Shown piece by piece: positions 14,060-14,360 of a stretch of 64,000 nt of DNA. The position numbers were made by a program, and so were the translations under genes. Source of the stretch: the human T2T-CHM13v2.0 reference genome, Homo sapiens; assembly GCF_009914755.1 (NCBI RefSeq), contig NC_060930.1; one strand, given 5' to 3'. Within the stretch, counting starts at the first letter, position 1. Every line of letters begins with the position of its first letter. The notes below the pieces were generated by a model. It searched no databases, was not told where the DNA came from, and saw nothing but the letters and a program-made list of their open reading frames with translations.

Positions 14060-14360
14060 CTGTATTAAACATCTTTAGGGTGTTCCAACTTCAAGGTTCT
14101 ATTAAAGTGCTAAAAAATTGTATTTTGTTTCAACATTCAGGACTGGTTGTATCATAAAATTCAGTGATTCAGTGATACCTGTGATCATTATGAATCAGTT
14201 GAAATTGATCATCACAACGTATTTAACTCAGAGGAATAAACTTCTCATTCAACATTTTAAATGATTTTCTTTTCCATAAGAAAATAACATTAATAAACTT
14301 CAATAAACTTTAGATTCTCCTTGCTACCCAAGGGATGTAAAAGTACCTGCACATAAAAAT
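14060..14360 (-). repeat. Inverted two-segment copy of local intronic sequence (20690-20964 and 21094-21121)
   Basis: Manual alignment: reverse complement of 14121-14331 vs 20690-20900 is 189/211 identical, ungapped; reverse complement of 14333-14360 vs 21094-21121 is 25/28. Confidence 0.95.

What the first reader, a model, noticed from the sequence alone, without database searches (positions are those of the whole stretch)
14060..14360. Two-piece inverted copy of neighbouring ME1 intron DNA captured inside an L1 ORF2
Seen: L1 ORF2 stops at ...caaaaatcac (14059) and resumes at atacaccaac (14359), losing ~10 nt. The ~300-bp filler is not L1. 14060-14331 is the reverse complement of 20690-20964 (189/211 identical over the ungapped core), and 14333-14360 is the reverse complement of 21094-21121 (25/28). 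The pieces are out of genomic order, there is no TSD or poly(A), and the right junction has 2-nt (AT) microhomology. The donors lie 1.0-1.4 kb beyond the host L1 3' end. Inference: serial template switching, either DNA repair (MMBIR/Pol-theta-like) or reverse transcriptase jumping onto ME1 pre-mRNA, since the insert is ME1-sense sequence in L1-sense orientation. About 10-13% divergence between copies looks too low for an event as old as an L1PA15-like host, favouring later repair or gene conversion. It leaves a largely non-TE inverted repeat that can pair across ~6.4 kb in pre-mRNA.
Basis: partly seen in the sequence, partly recalled or inferred. Interest (0 to 1): 0.78.

Follow-up and report, generated by a model that had tools for sequence, protein, structure and literature searches.

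The report
Old break patched with nearby DNA
An ancient break inside a dead L1 element in an ME1 intron was mended by copying about 300 bases, in two pieces and inverted, from DNA a few kilobases away, which is a well-documented and ordinary kind of repair scar in primate genomes.

Summary
Window 14064-14331 is the reverse complement of 20690-20961: 234 of 268 aligned bases match, with one 4-nt gap. Window 14335-14360 is the reverse complement of 21094-21124. A search of the whole assembly found only these two local copies. All 29 related L1 copies examined run straight through the site without the filler.

The host is an old, nested L1 (L1-A, + strand). It breaks between ORF2p residues 738 and 743 and has lost 3-10 nt. 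There is no target-site duplication and no untemplated poly(A).

Each junction shows short homology:
- Left: ATT, from TAGCATT in L1 relatives and TAGAATT in the donor.
- Internal switch: CCCAAAG lies at the end of donor A and again 6 nt before donor B.
- Right: AT.

The copies differ by K2P 0.141 ± 0.025, about 0.07 per lineage. L1-A's own branch is 0.11-0.13, so the event probably postdates the L1 insertion. This conclusion is not airtight.

The best reading is break repair by serial, microhomology-guided copying of nearby DNA. This matches the "repair-mediated duplications" of Pace et al. 2009, who found more than 1,000 in human TEs, including two-donor chimeras. This locus is not in their Table S1. 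It is a new member of a known kind, of low interest.

The parts
12835..14059 (+). Host L1-A, left part (ORF2, reverse-transcriptase domain; ends at ORF2p residue 738, 36 aa after FADD)
   Evidence: blastn to the full-length L1 at 51161-57217, 79.7%. ORF2p match to PDB 8sxt residues 686-738.
14060..14063 (+). CTGT at the left junction, matching neither L1 relatives (TAGC/TAGT) nor the donor (TAGA)
   Evidence: Alignment with 26 L1 relatives. Donor sequence.
14064..14331 (+). Filler piece A, an inverted copy of 20690-20961. Its first 3 nt (ATT) are shared with L1 relatives, giving left-junction microhomology.
   Evidence: 234/268 identical, one 4-nt gap, K2P 0.141 +- 0.025. Only 2 copies in the genome.
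14332..14334 (+). GGG at the internal junction, unassigned. It is possibly a diverged remnant of the CCCAAAG...ATGT stretch of donor B.
14335..14360 (+). Filler piece B, an inverted copy of 21094-21124. Its last 2 nt (AT, 14359-14360) overlap the resuming L1.
   Evidence: 25/26 with gaps. The 22-mer is unique in the window, with 0 of 100 shuffles matching.
14359..14729 (+). Host L1-A resumes (ORF2p residue 743 onward)
14778..17325 (-). L1-B, a later 5'-truncated L1 nested in L1-A. It has a 13-bp TSD (CCATCTAATCTTC) at 14778-14790 and 17313-17325, and its poly(T) starts at 14791.
   Evidence: Own branch <=0.084-0.099.
17315..17797 (+). Host L1-A, continued
17798..18851 (.). Alu (- strand) carrying a young L1 3' fragment (L1-C, + strand, 17860-18439) and T/C-rich simple repeats. 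It is nested in L1-A with a 15-bp TSD at 17783-17797 and 18852-18866.
   Evidence: Rfam SRP/Alu hits at 18569-18851. Sequence. L1-C best genomic pairs are 92-94% identical.
18853..19680 (+). Host L1-A 3' part, ending in a short degenerate A-rich tail
20690..20961 (-). Donor A. It is unique ME1 intron DNA, and its - strand is ME1 sense.
20688..20694 (-). CCCAAAG at the point where copying of donor A stops
21130..21136 (-). Second CCCAAAG, 6 nt before donor B. These are the only two on this strand in 20-22 kb. Expected number in a 20-nt stretch is 0.003.
21094..21124 (-). Donor B

Best explanation
This is an ancient germline repair scar. Well after L1-A had inserted into the ME1 intron, a double-strand break or collapsed fork arose inside its dead ORF2. 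One broken 3' end paired by a few bases with nearby chromosomal DNA, 2.7-6.3 kb away at the time. It copied about 270 nt from the opposite strand. It then slipped at a CCCAAAG repeat to a point about 440 nt away in the same donor region and copied about 30-45 nt more. Finally it re-annealed to the other broken end by 2-3 bases. The L1 lost 3-10 nt.

The mechanism is synthesis-dependent strand annealing or MMBIR-type serial template switching. The product is a 'repair-mediated duplication', with no function implied.

Shown here: the two-copy status, the anatomy of the junctions, the absence of retrotransposition hallmarks, and the relative ages. Inferred: the break itself, a DNA rather than RNA template, the direction of synthesis and the polymerase involved.
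For: 1. Copy number. Only two copies exist in the 3.1-Gb assembly, both local (the first look gave 2 candidates and both were scored).
2. Other L1s. 29 of 29 L1 relatives are contiguous across the site. The 26 that were aligned read ...TCAC TAGCATT CCTATA CACC....
3. Size of the loss. L1 lost only 3-10 nt. A two-ended break gives this automatically.
4. No TSD and no untemplated poly(A/T).
5. Short homology at every junction. On the left, ATT lies within TAGCATT (L1) and TAGAATT (donor). Internally, CCCAAAG occurs at 20694-20688 and 21136-21130, with a chance expectation of 0.003. On the right, AT.
6. Short unassigned filler: CTGT and GGG.
7. Both donors come from one 447-bp stretch, in the same orientation but out of order. 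That fits repeated switching by one polymerase better than ligation of loose fragments.
8. Age. The pair distance is K2P 0.141 +- 0.025, while L1-A's own branch is 0.110-0.117 (K2P star) or 0.130-0.142 (ML). If the filler were as old as L1-A, the probability of 34 or fewer mismatches in 268 is 0.0002-0.006.
9. Match to a described class. Pace et al. 2009 (PMC2671141, sections 6-8 read) report microhomology of 2-9 nt, deletion of 1-15 nt, filler of 1-68 nt and length up to 619 bp. They found 20 chimeric acceptors with two donors. Their 'all primates' events listed in part 1 of Table S1 mostly show 3-16% divergence.
10. Inverted orientation close to the template, with microhomology and several switches, is given as the MMBIR signature in PMC8421209 (passages seen).
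Against: - The dating is not decisive. If L1-A's true post-insertion divergence were as low as the shortest branch in its cluster (0.080), the probability rises to 0.27. L1-A's branch may also include differences inherited from its source element.
- Only 40 of 13,017 candidate L1 relatives were scored, so the closest relatives may have been missed.
- The filler has a lower GC content (29%) than the L1 flanks (37%), which could slow its divergence slightly.
- Today's donor distance of 6.33 kb exceeds the 5-kb cut-off that Pace et al. used for confident calls. It drops below 5 kb only if L1-B predates neither... that is, only if L1-B inserted after the event; removing the Alu/L1-C composite alone still leaves about 5.26 kb. 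L1-B's order relative to the filler is unresolved, and only L1-C looks clearly younger.
- CTGT differs from the L1 relatives at 3 of 4 positions, so the left microhomology is inferred from relatives and not observed directly.
- Nothing here separates a DNA template from an RNA template.
- No orthologous primate sequence was available to show an L1 without the filler.
Confidence: 0.72

Rival explanations
1. RNA-templated patch. The break in L1-A was repaired by reverse-transcribing nascent ME1 intron RNA made in cis. This would be a class 2 'templated sequence insertion' or transcript-templated repair. The enzyme jumped once within the RNA at CCCAAAG.
For: - The filler's + strand is ME1 sense, so the right-hand break end could have primed on ME1 pre-mRNA (coordinates; ME1 lies on the - strand by the hub annotation).
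- Class 2 TSIPs lack a TSD and poly(A), and show microdeletion, microhomology and non-templated bases (PMC5110952, passages seen).
- Transcript RNA can template break repair in human cells (PMC12065846, abstract only).
Against: - Either orientation of the filler could arise from RNA, so the ME1-sense orientation is not diagnostic.
- TSI donors mapped across 18 of 24 chromosomes with no preference for nearby DNA. Here both donors lie within a few kb.
- That proximity is the pattern Pace et al. assign to DNA-templated SDSA: 824 of 1,136 donors lay within 5 kb.
- Intron RNA is short-lived (background knowledge, not tested here).
Confidence: 0.12
2. L1 reverse transcriptase made an excursion during the original integration of L1-A. 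The growing cDNA left the L1 RNA, copied ME1 pre-mRNA or the nearby - strand in two steps, and returned to the L1 RNA.
For: - The donors lie 1.0-1.4 kb beyond the L1-A 3' end, on the flank that primes target-primed reverse transcription.
- If L1-A's true branch were about 0.08, the ages would be compatible (P = 0.27).
Against: - The enzyme would have to re-enter the L1 RNA within 3-10 nt of where it left. Nothing I read describes this. As I recall, not from a call, L1 chimeras made by template switching do not return to the L1.
- With the measured L1-A branch (0.11-0.13), a filler of the same age is unlikely (P = 0.0002-0.006).
Confidence: 0.06
3. Loose DNA fragments were captured. Two separate fragments released from the donor region were ligated into the break by end joining, with no copying.
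For: - Short unassigned bases (CTGT, GGG) at two junctions resemble end-joining additions.
- Capture of extrachromosomal DNA at breaks is known (PMC5110952, introduction passage).
Against: - The donor region is intact and contiguous, so any fragments would themselves have had to be copies.
- The CCCAAAG repeat lies exactly at the internal switch, which argues for homology-guided switching rather than blunt ligation.
- Both pieces share one orientation and come from a single 447-bp source.
Confidence: 0.05
4. An unrecognised low-copy repeat or transposon inserted independently at both places.
For: The genome search skips very common words and scores only the best candidates. Very old copies, more than 25-30% diverged, could therefore be missed (tool text).
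Against: - Only two hits were found, even at E <= 10 with the 1-kb donor region as query.
- There is no TSD and no terminal repeats, and the host lost bases instead of duplicating them.
- The two-piece, out-of-order structure relative to a contiguous donor is not what a transposon insertion gives.
- No Rfam family matches above threshold.
Confidence: 0.02

Closest known systems
[quoted passage not shown]
   Same: - A transposable element is interrupted by 50 bp or more of non-TE DNA that has exactly one other genomic copy nearby on the same chromosome.
- There is no poly(A) tail.
- The junctions show microhomology (2-9 nt), a small deletion (1-15 nt) and filler (1-68 nt).
- The length is within the reported range (up to 619 bp).
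- Two-donor chimeric acceptors are described: 20 cases, 5 of them with the second donor within 3.5 kb of the first.
- The divergence of about 12.7% falls within the range of their 'all primates' events.
   Different: - The donor is 6.33 kb away today, beyond their 5-kb 'proximal' cut-off. Part or all of the excess is later nested insertion.
- The second donor is only 133 bp from the first, closer than their reported range of 289-3,432 bp.
- The locus is not in their Table S1. Searches found no 'ME1' and no coordinates beginning 8400, 8401 or 8404-8407 on chr6. The expected hg18 position was recalled from memory, not computed.
MMBIR / FoSTeS templated insertions (MMB-TI; PMC8421209)
   Same: An inverted copy of a nearby template, microhomology at the junctions, and more than one template switch within one event.
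   Different: - The catalogued MMB-TIs are short, and by the search tool's definition their template lies within 100 bp. Here one piece is 268 nt and the template is kilobases away.
- This is a fixed, tens-of-millions-of-years-old germline event, not a somatic or cancer event.
Class 2 templated sequence insertion polymorphisms (Onozawa et al.; review PMC5110952)
   Same: A patch at a break with no TSD and no poly(A), and with microdeletion, microhomology and non-templated bases.
   Different: TSI donors are distant, often on other chromosomes, and are thought to pass through RNA. Here the donors are local, and no RNA step is needed to explain them.
'Doublets', short paired local duplications (Thomas et al. 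2004, as cited in PMC2671141)
   Same: A short non-tandem duplicate lying close to its source. Pace et al. say doublets share many attributes of RDs.
   Different: I did not read the doublets paper itself. It is known here only through the citing passage, which describes those surveys as covering duplicons under 100 bp that are identical or nearly so.

Membership tests
Repair-mediated duplication (Pace et al. 2009) | A TE is split by >=50 bp of intervening sequence, with the consensus positions of the two TE fragments within +/-30 bp of each other | tested here: met
   L1-A stops at 14059 and resumes at 14359. Ten reference bases are skipped. The same is seen in 29 of 29 relatives. ORF2p residues 738 and 743 flank the gap.
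Repair-mediated duplication (Pace et al. 2009) | The inserted sequence is found at exactly one other place in the genome | tested here: met
   The whole-assembly search gave self plus 20690-20961 only. Sensitivity is limited to BLAST-level similarity.
Repair-mediated duplication (Pace et al. 2009) | The donor lies on the same chromosome within 5 kb (their confident 'proximal' class) and more than 50 bp away | tested here: inconclusive
   The gap is 6,329 bp today. Removing the Alu/L1-C composite leaves about 5.26 kb, and removing L1-B as well leaves about 2.7 kb. L1-C is younger than the filler. The order of L1-B relative to the filler is unresolved.
Repair-mediated duplication (Pace et al. 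2009) | No poly(A/T) tail and no retrotransposition-type TSD | tested here: met
   The A5 at 14355-14359 is templated by the donor. Host bases were lost, not duplicated.
Repair-mediated duplication (Pace et al. 2009) | Junctions carry microhomology, a small deletion and/or filler | tested here: met
   Microhomology: ATT on the left, AT on the right, CCCAAAG internally. Deletion: 3-10 nt. Filler: CTGT and GGG.
Repair-mediated duplication (Pace et al. 2009) | An empty (uninterrupted TE) site in an outgroup species | not testable with these tools
   No primate genomes are held. The only substitute is relative dating.
MMBIR-type templated insertion | An inverted copy of a nearby template, with microhomology at each switch, and possibly several switches | tested here: met
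   Feature list from PMC8421209.
MMBIR-type templated insertion | The template lies within about 100 bp (operational definition of MMBSearch) | tested here: not met
   The template is 2.7-6.3 kb away.
L1 reverse-transcriptase template-switch chimera | The foreign segment is acquired during retrotransposition, and so is as old as the L1 copy | tested here: not met
   P(<=34 of 268 mismatches) is 0.0002-0.006 for an L1-A branch of 0.11-0.13. It would be 0.27 if the branch were 0.08.
Transposable element / repeat family | Multiple dispersed copies, with a TSD at the insertion | tested here: not met
   Two copies only. No TSD.

The most novel reading that the evidence does not exclude
The patch was reverse-transcribed from nascent ME1 intron RNA made in cis. 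The enzyme would have been either a repair polymerase acting on RNA at a break, or L1 ORF2p making an excursion and returning. In that case this is a fixed germline fossil of transcript-templated break repair that used non-homologous local RNA. The ME1-sense orientation and the location inside a transcribed intron are compatible with this reading, and nothing measured here excludes it.
Probability: 0.15. Interest if true: 0.6.

Novelty: new member of a known kind. Interest (0 to 1): 0.18.

Why it matters
It matters little on its own. It is a clean, well-resolved example of a two-donor local repair duplication, with readable microhomology at all three junctions, inside a nested-TE stack that gives a relative time scale. 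It could serve as a teaching case or as a test locus for pipelines that detect templated insertions. It also shows that the 5-kb distance cut-off used for such catalogues can miss events whose donor distance was later stretched by nested insertions. The inverted pair adds one more potential double-stranded RNA segment to an ME1 intron that already holds several L1 inverted pairs of similar predicted stability. Both arms lie in the same intron, with no exon between them, so no special effect on splicing is expected.

Tried and rejected
- The Rfam scan of 13900-21400 at E <= 1 gave nothing for the filler. For the donor it gave only two sub-threshold archaeal C/D-box hits (20802-20854, E 0.5-0.8), taken as chance. 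So this is not a small-RNA retrocopy.
- A link to the L1-B insertion 370 bp away was considered. It was rejected because L1-B has a clean 13-bp TSD and poly(T), so it is an ordinary insertion.
- 3' transduction or read-through from L1-A was rejected because the filler is the reverse complement of the downstream flank.
- Gene conversion between the arms was considered as the cause of the low divergence. Mismatches are spread along the alignment, and the longest perfect run is 31 nt. The first 56 aligned bases are more diverged than the rest (12/56 against 22/212, Fisher P = 0.04). This is weak and does not support a conversion tract.
- Ordering the filler relative to L1-B failed. L1-B's branch is only an upper bound because all 29 relatives recovered are younger.
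L1-C was therefore dated only from the listed identities.
- Pace et al. Table S1 was searched for this locus without a hit. Only part 1 of 15 of the table was read directly.
- Not done: A-to-I editing and RNA duplex maps, orthologous primate loci and a repeat-library (Dfam) check. No tool was available for any of these.

Full report
**What is there**

The sequence at 14060-14360 interrupts an L1 ORF2. I used the full-length L1 in the same window (51161-57217) as a ruler. On that ruler the region is a stack of nested elements.
- An old + strand L1 (L1-A) runs 12835-14059, 14359-14729, 17315-17787 and 18853 to about 19680.
- L1-A is split by the filler at 14060-14358.
- It is split again by a - strand L1 (L1-B, 14791-17308). 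L1-B has a 13-bp target-site duplication at 14778-14790 and 17313-17325.
- It is split a third time by an Alu that itself carries a young L1 3' fragment (L1-C). This composite spans 17798-18851 and has a 15-bp target-site duplication.

**The match**

The repeat finder and a gapped alignment give the following.
- 14064-14331 is the reverse complement of 20961-20690. Of 268 aligned bases 234 are identical (23 transitions, 11 transversions), with one 4-nt gap in an A-run. K2P is 0.141 ± 0.025.
- 14335-14360 is the reverse complement of 21124-21094, with 25 of 26 aligned bases identical once a TA-repeat gap is allowed.
- The 22-mer at 14339-14360 has only one other match in the 64-kb window (≤3 mismatches allowed). 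That match is at the donor, and none of 100 shuffles matched.
- In the donor, read on its - strand, piece B lies upstream of piece A. In the filler it lies downstream. The pieces are therefore out of order, in the same orientation, and come from one 447-bp stretch.

**Copy number**

A search of the whole 3.1-Gb assembly with the 301-nt filler found itself and the donor only. A search with 1 kb around the donor at E ≤ 10 found the same two places, plus the short piece B. The tool skips very common words and works at BLAST sensitivity, so very old diverged copies cannot be excluded. The 'many copies' refutation nevertheless fails. A search with the left L1 flank recovered 40 L1 relatives out of 13,017 candidates. 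In all 29 fetched loci the L1 runs straight across the site, with the left and right matches 10-16 nt apart in the locus. The filler is therefore private to this copy.

**Junctions**

Twenty-six aligned relatives read ...CAAAAATCAC TAGCATT CCTATA CACCAAC.... L1-A reads ...CAAAAATCAC CTGT ATT-[piece A]...[piece B]-AT ACACCAAC.
- Left junction. The donor's - strand reads ...GGAT TAGAATT AAATG.... The inferred precursors therefore shared TAG(C/A)ATT. ATT (14064-14066) survives as microhomology, and CTGT now matches neither sequence.
- Right junction. AT (14359-14360) is shared by the donor and L1.
- Internal junction. Copying of donor A stops inside CCCAAAG (20694-20688). A second CCCAAAG lies at 21136-21130, 6 nt before the first matched base of donor B. 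These are the only two occurrences on that strand between 20 and 22 kb, and the chance expectation for a 20-nt stretch is 0.003. The filler now reads CCCAA GGG ATGT there. This can be derived from CCCAAAG AAAATA ATGT by a small deletion and two transitions.
- L1 loss. L1 lost 3 nt if ATT is counted as L1, or 10 nt if it is not. At the protein level, ORF2p residues 738 and 743 flank the gap, 36 residues after the FADD motif of the reverse transcriptase.
- There is no target-site duplication and no untemplated A or T run.

**Age**

I estimated L1-A's own branch from 1,192 aligned columns against 26 relatives.
- The least-squares star estimate (K2P) is 0.117, or 0.110 without CpG-like columns.
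- The ML terminal branch is 0.142, or 0.130 without CpG-like columns.
- In the tree, L1-A sits among the older copies. Its cluster has terminal branches of 0.080-0.146.

The filler-donor distance of 0.141 corresponds to about 0.07 per lineage. If the filler were as old as L1-A, 50-57 mismatches would be expected in 268 bases, and 34 are seen. This gives P = 0.0002-0.006. If L1-A's true branch were as low as 0.080, P would be 0.27, so the test is suggestive rather than final.

For the other nested elements:
- L1-B's branch is at most 0.084-0.099. This is an upper bound, because all 29 relatives recovered are younger. Its order relative to the filler is open.
- L1-C's best genomic pairs are 92-94% identical, so it is younger than the filler.
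- The donor was therefore between about 2.7 kb and 6.3 kb from the break when the event happened.

In Pace et al.'s Table S1 (part 1 of 15 read), events shared by all primates surveyed mostly show 3-16% divergence. The 12.7% seen here fits that class.

**Mechanism**

A two-ended break explains why the L1 resumes within 3-10 nt of where it stops. A reverse transcriptase leaving L1 RNA would have no reason to return there. The evidence points to one polymerase run primed from a broken end that switched template at short homologies:
- short homology at all three junctions;
- small unassigned fillers;
- a small deletion;
- both donors from one nearby stretch;
- inverted orientation.

This is synthesis-dependent strand annealing or MMBIR-like repair. 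The direction of synthesis cannot be told. Priming from the left end would use the donor's + strand DNA. Priming from the right end would use the donor's - strand DNA, or equally ME1 pre-mRNA. An RNA template therefore remains possible, and I give it about 0.12. I give the L1 reverse-transcriptase excursion about 0.06.

**Comparison with what is known**

Pace, Sen, Batzer and Feschotte 2009 (PMC2671141; outline, sections 6-8, passages and Table S1 seen) searched human TEs for exactly this configuration.
- They found 1,136 cases, 824 of them with the donor within 5 kb.
- Proximal duplications averaged 162 bp, with a maximum of 619 bp.
- Junctions showed microhomology of 2-9 nt, deletion of 1-15 nt and filler of 1-68 nt.
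- Twenty acceptors were chimeras of two donors. In five of these the second donor lay 289-3,432 bp from the first.

The present locus meets every sequence criterion except the 5-kb cut-off, and it exceeds that at least partly because of later nested insertions. I found no row for it in Table S1. There was no 'ME1', and no chr6 coordinates beginning 8400, 8401 or 8404-8407. The hg18 position I expected was recalled from memory, not computed.

Two further comparisons apply. The MMBIR templated-insertion signature (inverted, near the template, microhomology, several switches) is described in PMC8421209 (passages). Class 2 templated sequence insertions are described in PMC5110952 (passages). Short-range template switching in great apes (PMC7954356) was seen only as a listing and abstract.

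**RNA pairing**

In ME1 pre-mRNA the two arms are predicted to form 245 intermolecular base pairs.
- Cofold energy is -329 kcal/mol, or -233 net of self-folding.
- Twenty shuffled controls averaged -107 ± 6 kcal/mol.
- Three inverted L1 pairs taken, lying only 1.5-2.9 kb apart, give net values of -196 to -237 kcal/mol.

The filler pair is therefore one of several comparable potential duplexes. Both arms lie in the same intron, with no exon between them.

**Verdict**

The thing is a repair-mediated local duplication, a known and common kind of event. This instance appears to be uncatalogued. Interest is low.

Noticed in passing
window 14778-17325: L1-B is a 5'-truncated - strand L1 nested in L1-A. 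It has a clean 13-bp target-site duplication (CCATCTAATCTTC) and poly(T) at 14791-14799. It also carries an internal T-run near 16053-16081, which splits NCBI's masked intervals.
   Followed up: partly
window 17783-18866: This is a three-level nest. An Alu (- strand) inserted into L1-A with a 15-bp TSD (CAACAAATATTTTTC). The Alu is itself split by a young L1 3' fragment (L1-C, 17860-18439) between direct repeats of GAGATGGAGTTGTGC (about 17844-17858 and 18571-18585). About 130 nt of T/C-rich microsatellite (18440-18570) sits where a poly(A) tail would be expected, which is odd for a + strand L1.
   Followed up: partly
window 14729-14790 vs 17315: L1-A appears to lack about 100-150 nt of ORF2 relative to the reference L1. 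Reference positions 55741 to 55889 are not covered by the blast hits, although L1-A sequence continues up to the L1-B target site. This could be an internal deletion or simply a very diverged stretch.
   Followed up: no
window 51161-57217: A roughly 6-kb, apparently full-length + strand L1. It was used here only as a coordinate ruler. It is 89% identical to L1-C and 78-82% identical to L1-A and L1-B. Its ORF integrity was not examined.
   Followed up: no
window 20802-20854 (+) and its copy at about 14170-14220: The duplicated segment contains a small near-palindrome (TGTGATCA...TGATCATCACA). This drew two sub-threshold archaeal C/D-box snoRNA hits (E 0.5-0.8), judged to be chance.
   Followed up: no
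L026 and L028 (own genome, chrY-numbered C24 and C23 loci): Two of the L1 relatives fetched are nearly identical to each other, with terminal branches of 0.002-0.006. This suggests they lie in a recent segmental duplication shared between the two contigs.
   Followed up: no
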